From Patescibacteria group bacterium (lineage in GTDB: Bacteria > Patescibacteriota > Minisyncoccia > Phycocordibacterales > DATDWN01), in assembly GCA_013816135.1 (NCBI GenBank), contig JACDEV010000003.1:1-61815 (forward strand): a stretch of 61,815 bases of DNA. Direction: 5' to 3'. Within the stretch, counting starts at the first letter, position 1; each line of letters opens with the position of its first letter. The notes beneath the pieces are model-generated. The model was not told where the DNA came from. It ran no database searches and saw only the letters and a program-made list of their open reading frames with translations. Made by a program: the position numbers and the translations under genes. Of the stretch, positions 3,355 through 61,815 are shown piece by piece.

Positions 3355-3780
3355 TTAAAATTGTTTTATTAAATTAATAACTTTAGGTACCCATACTTCT
3401 TGAGTAAAGAAGAGGGTAACAACTATAAATATTAAAATAATAACTCTTACATTATTAATAAGAAATAAAATTAAACTATATGTCTTTTCTGCTCTTTCTA
3501 ACAAAATTTGGTCGTTTTCTTGATTAGCAATTTCTATTATTTTTTTGAAACTTAAACCAGGTGTATTACCCGTATTGAAAGACTGAGACAAGTTAAAAGG
3601 AAATGGAAGAAATTTTAAAAATCTTGATGTTCCTAATTGATTTTTATATCGAGTTGGATATTTTACTTTTACATAACAACCAAGAGAATATAATTTCATT
3701 TCTAAGAATATTTTGAAGATAAGAAATGTCAAAATAAGTAAGCTTATTAAAAACCATAATATTGTGGGATTGTCTATCAT
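3355..3780 (-). CDS. hypothetical membrane protein
   Basis: ORF with N- and C-terminal hydrophobic helices. No recognisable motif. Confidence 0.4.
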   Translation of the reverse strand: MIDNPTILWFLISLLILTFLIFKIFLEMKLYSLGCYVKVKYPTRYKNQLGTSRFLKFLPFPFNLSQSFNTGNTPGLSFKKIIEIANQENDQILLERAEKTYSLILFLINNVRVIILIFIVVTLFFTQEVWVPKVINLIKQF

Positions 3781-54869: not shown

Positions 54870-54956
54870 GGAGAGTTCGCATAGCGGTCTAGTGCGCTCG
54901 CTTGGAAAGCGGGTAGGGAAGCAATTCCCTCAGGAGTTCGAATCTCCTACTCTCCG
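54870..54956 (+). tRNA. tRNA-Ser (GGA)
   Basis: Acceptor GGAGAGT/ACTCTCC, anticodon loop TTGGAAA, long variable arm, T arm AGGAG-TTCGAAT-CTCCT. TATAAT lies 11 nt upstream. No encoded CCA. Confidence 0.9.
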
Positions 54957-55127
54957 CAAACAAATTGTTTGCAATTTGTTCGTGAGAGTAAGTAAGGTCA
55001 TGTTATGACCTTACGTGGAGATTCGAAAGACGGAGCGGGTACTAGTCGAGCACGACTGGTCGCGAGTCCGGGTAGGGAAAATTTTCGAGCGACGGCCATA
55101 AAATTATTCCTGACCGAATTTCTCCGC
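54957..55127 (+). repeat. tRNA-linked GC-rich structured element, copy D
   Basis: A/T hairpin; GAGAGT; hairpin; GGAG+ATTCGAA (inverted T-loop of tRNA-Ser); GACGGAGCG; hairpin; CGCGAGTCCG; hairpin with CGAGCGACGGCC loop; CGAATTTCTCC GC. Confidence 0.6.
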
Positions 55128-57656: not shown

Positions 57657-58592
57657 ATGAAGATTGTAAAGAATTTATTCTTACTTGCGATTTTAGCTCT
57701 TGTTATTTTTTTCTTTAGAGTTCCGCTTCAGAATATTTATGCACAGATGACTTCGCGTTTTTTTGCCTGTCAGCAACCTATCACTTATAGCTTGGACAGG
57801 TTTGATACTAAGTTTGGTATTTCAAAGGATTACTTTTTGAAAACTATGTCTGACGCAGAAGGTGTATGGGAGATACCAATTAATAAAAAGCTTTTTACTT
57901 ATGATCCAACAGGTAATGGAACTCTCAAAATCAGTTTGATTTATGATATCCGCCAAGAATCTACATTAAAGCTGAGAGAGATGGGACTGGTAGTTCAAAA
58001 TACGAGAGCTTCATATGATGCTTTAAAGGCAAAATACGACTTGATGAATAAGAATTACCAATATGAAAAGAGTGTATTTGAAGCCAGAGTCTCAGCTTTT
58101 GAAAAACGTAAAGCAATTTATGAAGCTAAAGTAGCGTCTGAGAATAGAAAAGGAGGATCGGATGAGGCGACATACAATGCTTTAGAAGCTGAAAGACAAT
58201 ATTTAAATAATGAAATTGTCGCAATAAAAGCTATGCAGGATAATTTAAATATTACAGTAGATAATATAAATGTTCTTGCAATGGCACTAAATAAACTAGT
58301 AGCGTCACTCAATATCAATGTTAACCAATTCAATACTGTAGGTAGTACGCTTCCCGGCGAATTCGAAGAAGGTACTTATGAAAGTGGACCACAAGGGCAG
58401 AAGATAAATATTTATCAATTCGACAGTAGGGCAAAGTTAGTTCGTGTTCTAGCTCATGAGCTCGGTCATGCACTAGGCCTCGATCACGTTGATGATCCAA
58501 AGGCTATTATGTATAGATTAAATAATGGGATAAATGAAAAGCTGACGGCTACAGATCTCAAGGCTCTAAAGGCAAAATGTTCTATTAAATAA
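57657..58592 (+). CDS. matrixin-type (M10) zinc metalloprotease with a coiled-coil insert
   Basis: HELGHALGLDH followed by a Met-turn (AIMY). Confidence 0.7.
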   Translation: MKIVKNLFLLAILALVIFFFRVPLQNIYAQMTSRFFACQQPITYSLDRFDTKFGISKDYFLKTMSDAEGVWEIPINKKLFTYDPTGNGTLKISLIYDIRQESTLKLREMGLVVQNTRASYDALKAKYDLMNKNYQYEKSVFEARVSAFEKRKAIYEAKVASENRKGGSDEATYNALEAERQYLNNEIVAIKAMQDNLNITVDNINVLAMALNKLVASLNINVNQFNTVGSTLPGEFEEGTYESGPQGQKINIYQFDSRAKLVRVLAHELGHALGLDHVDDPKAIMYRLNNGINEKLTATDLKALKAKCSIK

Positions 58593-59677
58593 TGAAGCTC
58601 ACTAAGCTAAAAAAATGGTATGGCAAATATGAAAGGCCACTATCTTCACTCTCCCTTATTTTTGGATTTATTTTTGATGCAGTAACACTAGAGAGGATAG
58701 ATAAAGTTTGGGATAACTTCTGGGTCTTAGCACATATTTTATTGGTTGCGATATTAATGGTTTTGGTGCATTCAGTTAAAAGTAAGCCGGGGGACGAAAC
58801 TAATCCTCAAAAGCTTCAATTCTGGCTGGTTAATATTTTACAATTCGTATTCGGTGGACTCTTGTCAGTTTTCTTAGTTTTCTATTTTCGTAGCGCAGAC
58901 CTTTCTTCCAGTTGGCCTTTCTTGCTTATTTTGGCAATTGCATTTTGGGCCAACGAATCCTTGAAGCGACATTTTGTACGACTGACTTTTCAAGTCTCAA
59001 TTTTCTTTCTTTCTCTTTTTTGCTGTGCAATATTTTTGGTTCCGGTTCTGATGCATGAGTTTGGTACTCGTACATTTATTATTTCCGGACTTCTTAGTCT
59101 AGGGTCATTGTTTCTTTTTCTATATATAGTTTCAAAGGTAAGTAATGAGAAATTTAAAACTAGCAGGAGTATGATTTTTTTATCTGTGCTGGGAATCTAT
59201 GTAGGAATGAATGTTTTATATTTTACAAATCTTATTCCACCTATTCCACTTTCAATAAAAGATTCTGGAGTTTATCATTTCATCGAAAAAAATTCGATAG
59301 GTCAGTATGTTGGACAGTTCGAATATAAAAGCTGGGAAGATTATTTCAAGATTTATCATGAATACCATTTTGTGCAAGGAGAGACAGCATATGCTTATAG
59401 CGCTGTTTTTTCTCCTACCTCATTAAACACAACTATAGTTCATAAATGGCAGTATTATGACAAGGTTTCGAAACACTGGATACAATATGACAGCGTCTTG
59501 CTTCCAGTGTTTGGTGGAAGAAATGGAGGATTCCGTACGTTTTCTACTGAAAGGAATCTAACACCAGGAAAATGGAGGGTGAACGTAGAGACACTCCGAG
59601 GACAGGGAATTGGGCGAATAAGATTCAATGTCATTACTTCTCCTGCAGATAATTTGAAGACAAAAATTTTGGAGTAA
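58592..59677 (+). CDS. polytopic membrane protein with a C-terminal beta-rich domain (DUF2914-like)
   Basis: About 7 TM helices, then a soluble domain ending GKWRVNVETLRGQGIGRIRFNV. Family name recalled, not verified. Confidence 0.55.
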   Translation: MKLTKLKKWYGKYERPLSSLSLIFGFIFDAVTLERIDKVWDNFWVLAHILLVAILMVLVHSVKSKPGDETNPQKLQFWLVNILQFVFGGLLSVFLVFYFRSADLSSSWPFLLILAIAFWANESLKRHFVRLTFQVSIFFLSLFCCAIFLVPVLMHEFGTRTFIISGLLSLGSLFLFLYIVSKVSNEKFKTSRSMIFLSVLGIYVGMNVLYFTNLIPPIPLSIKDSGVYHFIEKNSIGQYVGQFEYKSWEDYFKIYHEYHFVQGETAYAYSAVFSPTSLNTTIVHKWQYYDKVSKHWIQYDSVLLPVFGGRNGGFRTFSTERNLTPGKWRVNVETLRGQGIGRIRFNVITSPADNLKTKILE

Positions 59678-59680
59678 TTG

Positions 59681-59751
59681 TGCGGGTAAGGGTAATCGAA
59701 ACCCTGCCTTATCCTTGGGAAGGACACGTTCTACCACTGAACCATACCCGC
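59681..59751 (-). tRNA. tRNA-Gly (CCC)
   Basis: The reverse complement folds: acceptor GCGGGTA/TACCCGC, anticodon loop TTCCCAA, T arm AGGGT-TTCGATT-ACCCT. Confidence 0.9.
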
Positions 59752-59812
59752 AATTTAGAAATAATATCACAATATTTTTGTGATATATTGTATTTCTGAC
59801 GGGCACCAAAGC

Positions 59813-59902
59813 GGAGGGTTGGCAGAGTGGTCTAATGCGCCGCACTCGAAACGCGGTTGGGGGTTTACCTCCTCACAGGTTCAAATCCTGTACCCTCCGC
59901 CA
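59813..59902 (+). tRNA. tRNA-Ser (CGA), CCA encoded
   Basis: Acceptor GGAGGGT/ACCCTCC, anticodon loop CTCGAAA, long variable arm, T arm ACAGG-TTCAAAT-CCTGT. Confidence 0.9.
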
Positions 59903-60020
59903 AAATTGAAAATCAGAATTGGAAGCCGAAACGGGGTCGCGCCGAAGGCGCGACACAAACGCATTCCCCCCAAAAAATCCTGAATCTGAAAGGGTTCGCC
60001 ACGCAGAGCGTGGCTCCTCG
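59873..60020 (-). pseudogene. remnant of a serine-recombinase C-terminal tail, antisense to and overlapping tRNA-Ser(CGA)
   Basis: The minus-strand frame reads EPRSAWRTLSDSGFFGGN AFVSRLRRDPVSASNSDFQFWRRVQDLNL*. This parallels the C-terminus of the intact recombinase (EPRSAWRTLSDSGFFGGN SEQTALRADHIFASEPDFVFWRYVLD...). Confidence 0.55.
59963..60016. repeat. left arm of the 54-bp perfect inverted repeat bracketing the recombinase gene
   Basis: ATTCCCCCCAAAAAATCCTGAATCTGAAAGGGTTCGCCACGCAGAGCGTGGCTC is the exact reverse complement of 61430-61483. Confidence 0.95.
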
Positions 60021-60037
60021 TTAGCCAATGCAACAAT

Positions 60038-61606
60038 ATGAATAATCACACCAGAAAATTTTTCATCTATACTCGCAAATCTACCGATACAGAAGATCGG
60101 CAAGTTAGAAGCATTTCGGATCAACTGGCCGAGTTAAAAGAGTTAGTGGTTAAAGAACAAATTGAGGTTGTTGATATTTTCGTGGAAAAGCAAACTGCTA
60201 AAGCTCCGGGTCGGCCAGTATTCAATGAAATGCTTCTCCGTATCGAAGCAAATGAGGCGAGTGGGATTTTAGCGTGGCATCCTGACCGCCTAGCTCGTAA
60301 TTCTGTTGATGGTGGAAAGATAATATATTTGCTTGATACGGGAAAAATTGCCGAGCTAAAATTCCCAACTTTCTGGTGTGATACTACGCCACAAGGTAAG
60401 TTCATGCTTTCCATTGCTTTCTCTCAATCCAAATACTATATCGATAACTTATCGGAGAATATCAAGCGTGGACACAGAAACAAAGTGAAAGACGGTATAT
60501 GGCCTCAAATGTCGCCTCTGGGCTATGTAAATGTCAAAGGTGCTGGAATAGTACCCGATGAAAATATCGCTCCGTTAATCAAGAAAACATTTGAGGCCTA
60601 CGCAACTGGAAATTTCACTTTGCGACAACTGCACGATAAGTTTAACGCTCTTGGATTGAGTAGAAAGAATGGAAAGGTGCTTTCCGTTTCAAACTATCAA
60701 CAAATTTTGAAAAATCCGATATTCACGGGGTTAATGAGATATAGTGGTGAAATATACGAAGGAAAGCACAAACCGATTATCACAAAGAAACTTTTTGATT
60801 CTGTTCAAGAGGTGATGAGTCGAAAATCTAAACCGCATAGCAAAGGACTGAAACCATTTTTGTATAGAGGATTTTTCCGTTGTGGAGAATGTGGATGTTT
60901 TATCACTACCGAAACACAGAAAGGTCATAACTATTTGCGATGTACTAAACGGAAAAATCCTTGTTTGCAAAAATATGTCCGTGAAGAAATCATCACTTCT
61001 CAAATTGCAGAAAGTATCAAAAAAGTTTCTTTGCCACTCGATTGGACAAATTGGATGATTGCCGAAAATGAAAAAGATCGGCAATCAGAAACCCAATCGA
61101 GTGAGATTTTTTCTCAAAAAACAAAAGATGAAATTTCTCTTTTAGATTCAAAAGTTGAAAAGTTGATGAACTTATATTTAGAAAATGTTTTGTCTTTGGA
61201 AGAATATCGTGATTCTAAAAATAAGTTAGTGAATCAAAAACAACTTTTAAAAGAGAAATTATCGGCTTTTGAGAAAAAATCTCATAATCGGTTCGAACTT
61301 ACCGATAAATTCCTAAAAGCCAATGTATCCAATATGGAATTGGCTAACGAGAAAACAAATGAAGAAATTCTTCATTTGTTTAAAAAAGTCGGTTCGAACT
61401 TTCAAATCTTGAATCGAACCGTCTTTTTTGAGCCACGCTCTGCGTGGCGAACCCTTTCAGATTCAGGATTTTTTGGGGGGAATTCAGAACAGACGGCACT
61501 TCGTGCCGACCATATTTTTGCTTCCGAACCCGATTTCGTTTTTTGGCGGTATGTTCTGGACAAAGTTCGAACCTTTTTTGAAATGAATCCTGACGAAGAA
61601 ATCTGA
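60038..61606 (+). CDS. large serine recombinase (integrase/invertase type)
   Basis: Resolvase catalytic domain (IYTRKSTDTEDRQ, HPDRLARN), recombinase domain, zinc ribbon (CGECGC...LRCTKRKNPC), coiled coil. Adjacent to a tRNA gene. Confidence 0.9.
   Translation: MNNHTRKFFIYTRKSTDTEDRQVRSISDQLAELKELVVKEQIEVVDIFVEKQTAKAPGRPVFNEMLLRIEANEASGILAWHPDRLARNSVDGGKIIYLLDTGKIAELKFPTFWCDTTPQGKFMLSIAFSQSKYYIDNLSENIKRGHRNKVKDGIWPQMSPLGYVNVKGAGIVPDENIAPLIKKTFEAYATGNFTLRQLHDKFNALGLSRKNGKVLSVSNYQQILKNPIFTGLMRYSGEIYEGKHKPIITKKLFDSVQEVMSRKSKPHSKGLKPFLYRGFFRCGECGCFITTETQKGHNYLRCTKRKNPCLQKYVREEIITSQIAESIKKVSLPLDWTNWMIAENEKDRQSETQSSEIFSQKTKDEISLLDSKVEKLMNLYLENVLSLEEYRDSKNKLVNQKQLLKEKLSAFEKKSHNRFELTDKFLKANVSNMELANEKTNEEILHLFKKVGSNFQILNRTVFFEPRSAWRTLSDSGFFGGNSEQTALRADHIFASEPDFVFWRYVLDKVRTFFEMNPDEEI
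61430..61483. repeat. right arm of the 54-bp perfect inverted repeat (inside the recombinase 3' coding region)
   Basis: GAGCCACGCTCTGCGTGGCGAACCCTTTCAGATTCAGGATTTTTTGGGGGGAAT. Confidence 0.95.
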
Positions 61607-61674
61607 AACAATGCGGACGAAGTTTTGCGGAAACAATTTTCTGGGGAAAGGATTCGCAAAACTTCGGCTGATTT

Positions 61675-61718
61675 CCCGCCCGCAGGAGGGGTCTGGGGAG
61701 GAATGCGGGCGGGTTTTT
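61675..61718 (+). terminator. GC-rich hairpin + T-run downstream of the recombinase
   Basis: CCCGCCCGCA (61675-84) / TGCGGGCGGG (61704-13) followed by TTTTT. Confidence 0.6.
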
Positions 61719-61815
61719 GAACCTTTCCTTTTTCGTTTCCGAATTTCGTGCCAGTTGAAAACTGGCGCACCACCTAGTTTATAAATTTACCTTATTTTGA
61801 ATAATACTTATCAAA

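What the first reader, a model, noticed from the sequence alone, without database searches (positions are those of the whole stretch)
59963..61483. Large serine recombinase gene bracketed by 54-bp perfect inverted repeats: candidate self-inverting segment that swaps the enzyme's C-terminus
59963-60016 and 61430-61483 are exact reverse complements (54/54). The left arm lies 21 nt upstream of the recombinase ATG, and the right arm lies inside its 3' coding region. Inverting the intervening ~1.4 kb would do two things. It would place the recombinase on the minus strand, convergent with tRNA-Ser(CGA). It would also fuse the body of the gene, in frame through the shared EPRSAWRTLSDSGFFGGN segment, to the alternative tail ...AFVSRLRRDPVSASNSDFQFWRRVQDLNL*, which ends inside the tRNA gene. 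The layout resembles Hin/Gin-type invertible segments that carry their own recombinase, but here the inversion would exchange the recombinase's own C-terminal tail. I am not aware of a described large serine recombinase with this arrangement.
Basis: partly seen in the sequence, partly recalled or inferred. Interest (0 to 1): 0.75.

Follow-up and report, generated by a model that had tools for sequence, protein, structure and literature searches.

The report
tRNA-Ser integrase with duplicated attachment site
The 54-bp inverted repeat is real, but it is best read as the remains of a duplicated attachment site of a small mobile element that inserts at serine-tRNA genes of Patescibacteria and whose serine-recombinase gene runs through its own attachment site, a widespread and apparently undescribed family.

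Summary
In detail: 59963-60016 and 61430-61483 are exact reverse complements, and flipping the segment between them would fuse the recombinase in frame to a tail that stops inside tRNA-Ser(CGA). The repeat is not special to this window. In 80 related Patescibacteria loci the same large serine recombinase (LSR) is nearly always preceded, about 21 nt upstream of its ATG, by an antisense copy of its own 3' end. Both arms are always 120 nt and are often 100% identical. The outer edge of each arm is a GCGG core that matches the tRNA-Ser 3' end. Beyond the core lies either a real tRNA-Ser or a "free tail" that mimics the tRNA T-arm displaced by exactly 5 bp, which is the known attB/attP half-site offset of serine integrases. 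A third junction and a second inverted repeat (190-273 bp) delimit 3.5-7 kb elements that carry an XRE regulator and variable cargo. My best reading is a tRNA-Ser-targeting integrative cassette with attP inside the LSR gene and a second, inverted attP copy. The window shows the rarer orientation (tRNA, arm, LSR, free tail) with hybrid arms (93/120). Programmed self-inversion is not excluded, but it is not the favoured explanation. Both orientations occur across the family. I could not test for both within one population.

The parts
59813..59902 (+). tRNA-Ser(CGA). Its 3' part (T-arm TTCAAA at 59880-59885, then the acceptor strand) serves as the host-derived B'-type half-site. The last bases (CCAAAA) are supplied by the arm.
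   Evidence: ARAGORN and Rfam tRNA, 54 bits. The T-loop motif lies at offset 11 from the core, as in the other tRNA flanks scored. Unoccupied tRNA-Ser genes end CCGCA..., without an encoded CCA.
59897..59900 (.). Left crossover core CCGC (the complement of GCGG): junction between the tRNA and the arm, of attL type.
   Evidence: This is the shortest sequence shared by all three junction types across loci. Its role as the crossover point is inferred.
59897..60016 (-). Left 120-nt arm ('stub'): an antisense copy of LSR codons 465-504. The inner 54 nt (59963-60016) are identical to the right arm; the outer 66 nt are a different allele. It contains hairpins at 59998-60014 and 59936-59954.
   Evidence: 93/120 identity. 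The stub ORF is listed (59873..60124, minus strand).
60017..60037 (+). 21-nt leader between the arm and the ATG. It is 21 nt (19 in many loci) across most of the family.
   Evidence: usually 18-22 nt; about 160-170 nt in L124 and L129.
60038..61606 (+). Large serine recombinase gene, 522 aa. The conserved fold ends at about residue 464-470. Residues 465-522 are encoded by the att region.
   Evidence: Pfam PF00239, PF07508 and PF13408. Alignment to the A118 integrase C-terminal domain ends at query 418 = chain residue 274 of 328.
61430..61549 (+). Right 120-nt arm (P-type arm of the intact attP), encoding EPRSAW...FVFWR. The perfect 54-nt block is 61430-61483. Hairpins lie at 61432-61448 and 61494-61508. 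The GCGG core is at 61546-61549.
61550..61606 (+). Free tail (YVLDKVRTFFEMNPDEEI*), which is also a P'-type half-site: a mimic of the tRNA T-arm, with TTCGAA at 61566-61571, 5 bp further from the core than in a real tRNA.
   Evidence: Alignment gap TCTGG. Offset 16 in all 33 free-tail flanks against 11 in tRNA flanks. The published 5-bp attP/attB shift is in PMC3783163.
61607..61815 (+). Conserved trailer of the free-tail region: a long hairpin (61617-61665) and a GC-rich hairpin followed by a T-run (61675-61717). In relatives this region belongs to a second inverted repeat (190-273 bp) that flanks the cargo. The window ends here.
   Evidence: Sequence; conservation across loci; inverted second copy in 17 relatives. 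The window's F region is 266 nt long up to the contig end.

Best explanation
The locus is one end of a small integrative element that targets the 3' end of tRNA-Ser genes in Patescibacteria. Its integrase is a large serine recombinase whose reading frame runs on past the end of the enzyme fold and through the element's own attachment site. That site consists of a 120-nt P arm (codons 465-504), a GCGG crossover core that matches the tRNA's ...CCGC 3' end, and a P' arm that imitates the tRNA T-arm and encodes the native 'free' tail. The element carries a second copy of this whole att region in inverted orientation, ending about 21 nt upstream of the recombinase ATG. Integration through one copy splits that copy. 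This leaves a 120-nt inverted repeat around the recombinase core and a 190-273-nt inverted repeat around the cargo (an XRE regulator plus variable genes). If the copy inside the gene is used, the gene ends up fused to an antisense-tRNA tail, which is the common state. If the upstream copy is used, or if the core later flips by recombination between the arms, the tRNA sits upstream and the gene keeps its free tail, which is the window's state. The window's arms are a hybrid of two family alleles, so only their inner 54 nt are identical. Shown: the architecture, the three junctions, the shared core, the 5-bp register and the counts of each state. Inferred: that the LSR cuts at GCGG, that excision gives a circle with two inverted att copies, and how the window's state arose.
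For: (1) The architecture is family-wide. In nearly all of 80 loci an antisense copy of residues ~465-520 precedes the ATG. In all 57 loci where both arms could be measured, each arm is exactly 120 nt; identity is 100% in 25 of them and falls to random outside the arms. (2) In nearly all loci one flank is a tRNA-Ser gene, with any anticodon. (3) The tRNA tail and the free tail diverge immediately after TTTTGGCGG. (4) The TTCGAA T-loop motif lies at offset 11 in the tRNA flanks scored (all 19 caught by the regex; others agree by eye) and at offset 16 in all 33 free-tail flanks. This equals the ZD-motif positions 11-19 (attB) and 16-24 (attP) described for A118-type integrases (PMC3783163). (5) A third junction exists: an inverted copy of the free-tail region, 97-100% identical, lies 1.6-5 kb away and abuts unrelated host DNA at the same (TG)GCGG core. 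It delimits elements of 3.5-7.1 kb. (6) Genes on the free-tail side are shared between loci (the XRE HTH gene in 15 of 20 long loci), whereas genes on the tRNA side are not. (7) Loci with a tRNA-Ser on both sides (L024, L041, L056) show that the upstream copy can also be joined to a tRNA. (8) Unoccupied tRNA-Ser genes end CCGCA..., while the occupied one ends CCGCCAAAA. (9) L127 shows the predicted order LSR, free tail, XRE, cargo, inverted F. (10) Orphan contigs bounded by k-mer-length pieces of both arms (L008, assembled at k=87) and SPAdes contigs ending 54-55 nt into an arm fit a 120-nt inverted repeat that breaks assemblies.
Against: No circular form, empty site or excision junction from the same strain was recovered, so mobility is inferred from comparative anatomy only. 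Canonical serine integrases do not recombine attP with attP or attP with attL, so the model does not say what keeps the two arms identical or what the second copy is for. State-B loci have mostly diverged arms (3 of 4), which simple integration through the upstream copy does not predict; recombination between element lineages has to be invoked. Odd junctions (L010, L017, L067, L076, L128) and composite arrays (L029, L040) show that the system is messier than the model. The far end of the window's own element lies beyond the contig.
Confidence: 0.62

Rival explanations
1. Programmed self-inversion. The recombinase, or RecA acting on the arms, flips its own core between the two arms as a regular switch. 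This toggles the enzyme between the free tail and the tRNA-antisense tail, and toggles its direction relative to the tRNA, to regulate activity or directionality.
For: Both orientation classes occur in the family. The arms are kept perfectly identical in 21 of 40 state-A loci even though their sequence differs between loci, which needs ongoing exchange between the arms. The fusion is in frame. A cargo module bounded by the other inverted repeat is flipped between two near-identical elements (L034/L040, 98.5% over 2.7 kb). Many short-read contigs break inside the arms. In Mx8, the change to the int gene on integration is linked to integrase regulation, judging from the titles of papers cited in the reference list read.
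Against: State B is rare (4 of 50 classified loci) and its arms are mostly diverged, unlike state A. The window's own arms share only 54 nt. The two sites that would have to react are of attL type and attP type, a pairing that serine integrases normally refuse (PMC3783163). The tail lies outside the conserved fold, and the tails found in state A vary freely in length and sequence. I found no pair of near-identical recombinase modules in opposite orientation at the same host site.
Confidence: 0.18
2. The recombinase core with its two 120-nt arms is an autonomous module, like an insertion sequence with terminal inverted repeats. It moves or is exchanged independently of the cargo. The window shows such a module lodged between a tRNA-Ser attL remnant of an older element and the free-tail/cargo part of another.
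For: L034 and L040 share 98.5%-identical cargo, but their recombinase modules are only ~85% identical. Loci with a tRNA-Ser on both sides contain the module without adjacent cargo (L041, L056). Arms of different alleles flank one gene in the window and in L123, L124, L129 and L130. In L029 a second, 55%-identical recombinase is joined to the same free tail.
Against: No mechanism is known by which an LSR would transpose a unit bounded by two P arms. The same observations follow from homologous recombination within the ~1.4-kb, 80-95%-identical recombinase genes of co-resident elements. In most loci the arms and the free-tail repeats are perfectly matched, as expected for a single coherent element.
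Confidence: 0.1
3. Assembly chimera in this particular contig. The host tRNA-Ser with the attL arm of one element was joined, through the shared 54-mer (k-1 for k=55), to the upstream arm and recombinase of another related element in the same metagenome. In that case the inverted-repeat arrangement seen here would not exist in any one genome.
For: The perfect block is exactly 54 nt, and the sequence changes allele at its outer edge. Several related elements can coexist in one MAG or community (L030/L064 and L031/L077). SPAdes contigs in this family often break 54-55 nt into the arms.
Against: The same orientation with diverged arms is found in independent assemblies where no long shared block exists: L123 (MEGAHIT k141, arms 67.5% identical), L124 (JGI) and L006. 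The inner edge of the block is the natural inner end of the family's arm, and its outer edge is where family alleles begin to differ, so a length of 54 needs no k-mer explanation.
Confidence: 0.07

Closest known systems
Phage-type large serine integrases (A118/LI, phiC31, Bxb1, SPbeta SprA)
   Same: Same domain set: Resolvase, Recombinase and Zn-ribbon with a coiled-coil insert. The sites are short and centred on a small common core. The outer recognition motif sits 5 bp closer to the core in the host half-site than in the element half-site.
   Different: [quoted passage not shown] The whole att region is present twice, inverted. The elements are 3.5-7 kb cassettes with no recognisable virion, replication or conjugation genes (by inspection only), and the family is absent from the viral contig collection.
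Integrases whose ORF spans attP: myxophage Mx8 IntP and archaeal SSV-type 'suicidal' integrases
   Same: The attachment site is inside the integrase gene, so integration rewrites or splits the gene. The targets are tRNA genes. [quoted passage not shown] SSV-type integrases carry the recombination site within their ORF (PMC7253208).
   Different: Those are tyrosine recombinases with a different chemistry and site architecture. They have no inverted second copy of the att region. Here only a ~58-residue extension beyond the fold is exchanged, not a catalytic part.
Hin/Gin/Cin DNA invertases
   Same: A serine recombinase gene lies inside a segment bounded by inverted repeats (as in Hin). Inversion would change the 3' end of a coding sequence (as in the Mu/P1 tail-fibre systems). 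This comparison rests on my own knowledge.
   Different: Those are ~190-aa small serine recombinases with a C-terminal HTH, 26-bp hix/gix sites and a Fis-bound enhancer. Here the enzyme is a 522-aa LSR, the arms are 120 nt, the crossover core sits at the outer edge of the arms, and the flanks obey attP/attB logic.
Yeast 2-micron plasmid (FLP/FRT in 599-bp inverted repeats)
   Same: The inferred excised form would be a small circle with two unique segments separated by a perfect inverted repeat (310-390 bp) that contains the recombinase's own site. The 2-micron details are from my own knowledge; the geometry follows.
   Different: FLP is a tyrosine recombinase and the 2-micron plasmid is an autonomous replicon. 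No replication gene and no circular form were seen here, so this is an analogy of layout only.
Tycheposons and other small cargo islands at tRNA genes
   Same: Small cargo-carrying integrative elements that sit at specific tRNA genes, including tRNA-Ser, in streamlined genomes (10.1101/2020.12.28.424599).
   Different: 910 of the 937 elements in that study use tyrosine integrases, and many carry replication genes. No inverted att duplication or attP inside the gene is described there.

Membership tests
Large serine recombinase / serine integrase | N-terminal resolvase catalytic domain, followed by a recombinase domain and a zinc-ribbon domain | tested here: met
   PF00239 (res 9-154, 1.7e-19), PF07508 (178-262, 9e-14) and PF13408 (275-327, 3e-7), all above the curated cut-offs. 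PDB hits are to the A118 integrase C-terminal domain and to a conjugative-transposon recombinase.
Large serine recombinase / serine integrase | [quoted passage not shown] | tested here: met
   TTCGAA-type motif at offset 16 in 33 of 33 free-tail flanks and at offset 11 in the tRNA flanks scored. Published positions are 16-24 against 11-19 (PMC3783163).
Large serine recombinase / serine integrase | Crossover at a 2-bp central dinucleotide, with attL and attR as hybrid sites at the element's ends | tested here: inconclusive
   All junction types share only a 4-6-nt core, (TG)GCGG, which must contain the crossover. The dinucleotide itself cannot be identified from sequence. The hybrid junctions J1 (host|F) and J3 (arm|tRNA) are present in direct orientation.
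Large serine recombinase / serine integrase | Catalysis of integration and excision (activity) | not testable with these tools
   No reads, no circular junction and no empty site from the same strain were available.
Hin/Gin-type DNA invertase system | Small (~190 aa) serine recombinase with a C-terminal HTH domain | tested here: not met
   The protein has 522 aa with Recombinase and Zn-ribbon domains and no HTH_7-type hit.
Hin/Gin-type DNA invertase system | Two ~26-bp inverted crossover sites bounding the segment, plus an enhancer inside it | tested here: not met
   The arms are 120 nt. The shared core lies at their outer edge and is flanked by asymmetric attP-like and attB-like half-sites. 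I did not search for an enhancer.
Hin/Gin-type DNA invertase system | Both orientations present in one clonal population | not testable with these tools
   No reads were available. No same-species contig was found in the metagenome scan, and no same-host pair of opposite states was found among the loci.
attP-within-integrase-ORF elements (Mx8 / SSV type) | Recombination site located inside the integrase reading frame, so that integration alters the gene | tested here: met
   The core GCGG at 61546-61549 lies 57 nt before the stop codon. Relatives carry tRNA-antisense tails in place of the free tail.
attP-within-integrase-ORF elements (Mx8 / SSV type) | Tyrosine recombinase | tested here: not met
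   The enzyme is a serine recombinase. The likeness is therefore one of mechanism, not of family membership.
tRNA-gene integrative island (Islander definition) | An intact tDNA at one end, with its 3' end restored by the element | tested here: met
   The intact tRNA-Ser is called by ARAGORN and Rfam. The arm supplies CCAAAA after CCGC.
tRNA-gene integrative island (Islander definition) | A displaced tDNA fragment as a direct repeat at the other end | tested here: not met
   The crossover is at the extreme 3' end, so only 4-6 nt are shared. The tRNA-like sequences in the element are mimics in inverted orientation.

The most novel reading that the evidence does not exclude
The element is a true flip-flop device. 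Its two inverted attP copies would let the recombinase (a) invert its own core, toggling between a native tail and a tRNA-encoded tail as a built-in directionality or activity switch, comparable to the change made to the Mx8 int gene on integration; (b) integrate in either orientation; and (c) recombine its spare attP with any other tRNA-Ser gene, driving chromosomal inversions between tRNA-Ser loci in Patescibacteria, as pTN3 does between tRNA genes in Thermococcales. This would be the first serine-integrase system built this way.
Probability: 0.2. Interest if true: 0.8.

Novelty: new variant of a known kind. Interest (0 to 1): 0.62.

Why it matters
If the reading is right, four things follow. 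(1) It is a very large natural family of serine integrases that target tRNA genes. More than 6,400 database proteins match at E<=1e-10 (the top 120 are 78-95% identical), and 167 stretches were confirmed as relatives among species-representative genomes. A standard reference said this target class is not used by serine integrases. (2) It extends the 'attP inside the integrase gene' design from tyrosine to serine recombinases and adds an inverted duplicate of the site, which raises a clear mechanistic question: what is the second attP for, and what keeps the copies identical? (3) Hundreds of natural attP, attB, attL and attR sets can be read directly from genomes, which makes a ready dataset for studying how serine integrases recognise their sites. 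(4) Patescibacteria have almost no genetic tools. A native integrase with a defined, universally present target (tRNA-Ser) is an obvious candidate for an integration vector. (5) The repeats also explain a recurrent assembly break in Patescibacteria MAGs.

Tried and rejected
(1) An exact-protein look-up of the window's recombinase found nothing on record. (2) A metagenome scan anchored on the neighbouring host gene (58592-59674), meant to find the same species with an empty or flipped site, found relatives no closer than 57% identical, with no conserved synteny. Only L091 had a tRNA-Ser(CGA)/tRNA-Gly pair, and it was unoccupied. (3) The viral-contig scan gave only a 26%-identical hit, so I dropped the prophage reading. 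(4) An Rfam scan of 59600-61815 found only the two tRNAs; the tRNA mimic and the arm hairpins match no known family. (5) The promoter scan gave no convincing promoter upstream of the ATG, with matches at the level expected by chance. (6) An all-against-all comparison of host flanks found no same-host pair in opposite states; it did find the L034/L040 cargo flip. (7) I considered a simple tRNA island with a direct repeat and rejected it, because the tRNA-like sequence in the element is inverted and only 4-6 nt are shared at the junctions. (8) I considered that the contig ends exactly at the inner end of the second repeat. This is only roughly consistent: the window's F region is 266 nt, against 190-273 nt in relatives, but alignment suggests it runs 50-100 nt past the repeat end of the closest relatives. 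(9) I did not run a structure prediction, because the only homologues that could be submitted are 78% or more identical and would give a shallow alignment. (10) The Mx8 primary paper (PMC178153) is not held, so it is cited through two papers that list it.
Full report
OBSERVATION. The repeat is exactly as described. 59963-60016 and 61430-61483 are 54/54 reverse complements separated by 1413 nt, and neither end can be extended by one base. The ORF 60038-61606 (522 aa) carries Resolvase, Recombinase and Zn_ribbon_recom domains, so it is a large serine recombinase (LSR). tRNA-Ser(CGA) lies at 59813-59902 on the same strand. The right arm begins exactly at codon 465. When I inverted 60017-61429 in silico, the result was a 511-aa protein ending ...GGNAFVSRLRRDPVSASNSDFQFWRRVQDLNL*, with its stop at 59873-59875 inside the tRNA gene. 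The hairpin motif inside the arm occurs only at these two places in the window, against 0.01 expected by chance.

The homology does not stop at 54 nt. The reverse complement of 59870-59962 aligns to 61484-61575 at about 65% identity, and that stretch includes the tRNA's CCA end, acceptor strand and T-arm. The 3' end of the recombinase gene therefore contains a degenerate antisense copy of a tRNA-Ser 3' end.

THE FAMILY. More than 6,400 proteins match at E<=1e-10, and the top 120 are 78-95% identical. The named ones come from Patescibacteria, and many sit on contigs of about 2 kb. Their C-termini fall into two classes after a common ...FWR: a 'free' tail like the window's (...[CY]LLDKVR.YFE.NPD..) and a tail that is the antisense translation of a tRNA (R.RDSNPR...). 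About 75% are of the tRNA type and about 18% of the free type.

ARCHITECTURE IN 80 GENOMIC LOCI. In nearly every locus an antisense copy of residues ~465-520 lies just upstream of the ATG. In nearly all loci one flank is a tRNA-Ser gene, with any anticodon. Wherever both arms could be measured (57 loci) each is exactly 120 nt. In 25 of these they are 100% identical, with identity falling to random on both sides, even though the arm sequence differs between loci. Classified by what lies beyond each arm:
- State A (free-tail stub upstream, gene running into the tRNA): n=40, of which 21 have 100% identical arms and 31 have at least 97%.
- State B (tRNA upstream, gene with free tail): n=4, namely the window at 77.5%, L123 at 67.5%, L124 at 75% and L006 at 97.5%.
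- tRNA on both sides: n=3.
- Free tail on both sides: n=3.

JUNCTION LOGIC. The tRNA flank and the free-tail flank diverge immediately after T(T/G)GCGG, the complement of the tRNA's ...CCGC(CA) end. In the tRNA flanks scored, the T-loop motif TTCGAA starts 11 nt after the core. In all 33 free-tail flanks it starts 16 nt after the core. This constant 5-bp shift matches what Rutherford et al. described for serine integrases, where the zinc-ribbon-domain motif occupies half-site positions 16-24 in attP and 11-19 in attB (PMC3783163). The free tail is therefore best read as a P'-type half-site that mimics the tRNA, the tRNA end as a B'-type half-site, and GCGG as the region that contains the crossover. 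Unoccupied tRNA-Ser genes, such as the window's own tRNA-Ser(GGA) and L091, end ...CCGCA, whereas the occupied one ends CCGCCAAAA with the last bases supplied by the arm.

A THIRD JUNCTION AND A SECOND REPEAT. In 17 long loci the free-tail region together with its trailing hairpins (190-273 nt) recurs 1.6-5 kb away in inverted orientation at 97-100% identity. That far copy ends at the same (TG)GCGG core, and beyond it the sequence is unrelated between loci, so it is host DNA. This junction (host|F) and the arm|tRNA junction are in direct orientation, and together they delimit units of 3.5-7.1 kb. Genes inside the units are shared between loci: an XRE-type HTH gene of ~65-88 aa lies next to the free-tail copy in 15 of 20 long loci, and its Pfam HTH hits were seen in L127. 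The rest of the cargo varies and was judged by inspection only: membrane proteins, hydrolase-like proteins, a Ddl-like ligase, ArsR- and nitroreductase-like proteins, a methylase-like protein and a LexA-like protein, with no obvious replication, conjugation or virion genes. Genes on the tRNA side are not shared. The family is absent from the viral contig collection.

MODEL. If excision occurs between the two direct junctions, it would give a circle in which the LSR core (with its 21-nt leader) and the cargo are separated by two inverted copies of the complete att region (arm + core + free tail, 310-390 bp), and in which the LSR carries its free tail. Integration through the copy inside the gene gives state A. 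Integration through the upstream copy, or a later flip between the arms, gives state B, which is the window's state. Use of both copies gives a tRNA on each side. This accounts for the following:
- the sharp 120-nt arms;
- the shared core at all three junction types;
- the two tail classes;
- L127, which shows LSR, free tail, XRE, cargo and then inverted F;
- the orphan contigs bounded by k-length pieces of both arms (L008, k=87) and the SPAdes contigs that end 54-55 nt into an arm.
The window's F region runs for 266 nt to the contig end. That is within the range of F-repeat lengths in relatives, although probably somewhat past the repeat's end. The catalytic steps are inferred, not shown.

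THE TAIL. Alignment to the A118 integrase C-terminal domain ends at query residue 418 = chain residue 274 of 328. Extrapolated to the end of the chain, the conserved fold ends at about residue 464-470, which is the inner edge of the arm. The 58 swapped residues are therefore an extension encoded by the att site, not part of the known fold. State-A tails vary freely in length and sequence and include frameshifted readings. Swapping the tail is thus a structural consequence of having attP inside the ORF. Whether it also regulates the enzyme is unknown. Precedents exist among tyrosine integrases. The Mx8 and SSV integrases 'extend across attP' (PMC4383910). Mx8 integration alters the IntP C-terminus (title cited). 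SSV-type 'suicidal' integrases split their own gene (PMC7253208).

THE WINDOW SPECIFICALLY. Its arms are 59897-60016 and 61430-61549, identical at 93 of 120 positions. The inner 54 nt are identical, and the outer 66 nt are two different family alleles (AFVSRLRRDPVSASNSDFQFWR against SEQTALRADHIFASEPDFVFWR). Hybrid arms also occur in L123, L124, L129, L130 and several state-A loci. The most economical explanation is recombination between co-resident element lineages. Two copies in one MAG are documented, as are composite arrays: in L029 a second, 55%-identical LSR reads into the far junction, and L034 and L040 share 98.5%-identical cargo that is flipped relative to LSR modules only ~85% identical. 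A chimeric join through the shared 54-mer cannot be excluded for this contig. State B with diverged arms does, however, exist in independent assemblies that have no long shared block (L123, assembled at k141).

SELF-INVERSION. In its favour: both orientations exist, the arms are kept identical, a cargo flip has been seen, and assemblies break in the arms. Against it: state B is rare and its arms are diverged, the two sites that would have to react are of attL and attP type, and I found no same-host pair in opposite states. I put programmed inversion at about 0.2.

NOVELTY. [quoted passage not shown] Five literature searches found no description of this family or of this architecture. Tycheposons are a loose analogue that uses mostly tyrosine integrases. 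I classify the finding as a new variant of a known kind: a serine-integrase integrative element with a tRNA target, attP inside its own ORF, and an inverted duplicate of the att region.

Noticed in passing
L015 1786-1873, L020 7498-7587, L021 878-963, L041 5439-5526, L056 7495-7584, L080 5775-5864: ARAGORN calls tRNA-Ser genes with the unusual anticodon ACT beside or near the cassette. They are often paired with a tRNA-Ser(GCT) a few hundred bases away.
   Followed up: no
L034 3172-5865 vs L040 3160-5871: The whole cargo module bounded by the two inverted free-tail copies is 98.5% identical between two Paceibacterota MAGs but flipped relative to the recombinase. The recombinase modules are only ~85% identical.
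   Followed up: partly
L029 1891-3444 and junction at 3390: A second recombinase, 55% identical and with a very different arm, reads straight into the far junction and ends in the same free tail (...KTWRCLLDKVRNYFEQNPND*). The cargo here sits between two recombinase modules. L060 and L061 also hold more distant LSR paralogues (32-40% identical) near tRNA-Ser genes.
   Followed up: partly
L017 ~1672, L067 ~7500, L076, L010 ~7512, L128; proteins P0009, P0014, P0018: In these the arm core is followed by neither a tRNA-antisense flank nor a free tail. Examples are tails such as ...LRCTRVWYPWVQPL and ...LRAMWVQYQSGETP, and in L128 an arm joined to the inverted distal part of F. They could be alternative targets or rearrangements.
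   Followed up: no
L005 vs L007 (both labelled Saccharibacteria): The two loci share host genes (a 685-aa protein at 66% identity), but the tRNA-Ser and the element lie in opposite orientation relative to that gene. This could reflect a chromosomal rearrangement at the tRNA-Ser site.
   Followed up: partly
window 59936-59954 and 61494-61508; arms of all loci: The second hairpin inside the arm keeps its stem through compensatory changes between alleles (GGCAC/GTGCC, GGCGC/GCGCC, CGCGCC/GGCGCG). The first hairpin (GCCACGC-nnn-GCGTGGC) has a nearly invariant stem. This suggests a selected DNA or RNA structure, for example a terminator for the tRNA. No Rfam family matches.
   Followed up: partly
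L010 6001-6720, L018 163-501: Some family members have recombinase genes cut short by early stop codons, while their arms and free-tail repeat remain intact.
   Followed up: no
L030 and L064 (CAZCNN01); L031 and L077 (JBAQUX01): The same MAG carries two copies of the cassette on different contigs, so the cassette can occur more than once per genome.
   Followed up: no
contig titles of L008, L010, L021, L025, L027, L048, L051 and others: Several contigs that carry this Patescibacteria-type cassette are binned as Bacteroidales, Gammaproteobacteria, Bdellovibrionales or Lentisphaerae. This probably reflects mis-binning or mislabelling of short or atypical contigs.
   Followed up: no
window 54870-54957: The window's second tRNA-Ser (GGA) is unoccupied. 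It ends ...CTCTCCGCAAAC, with no arm or hairpin motif downstream, so it is a potential free target for the same recombinase.
   Followed up: yes
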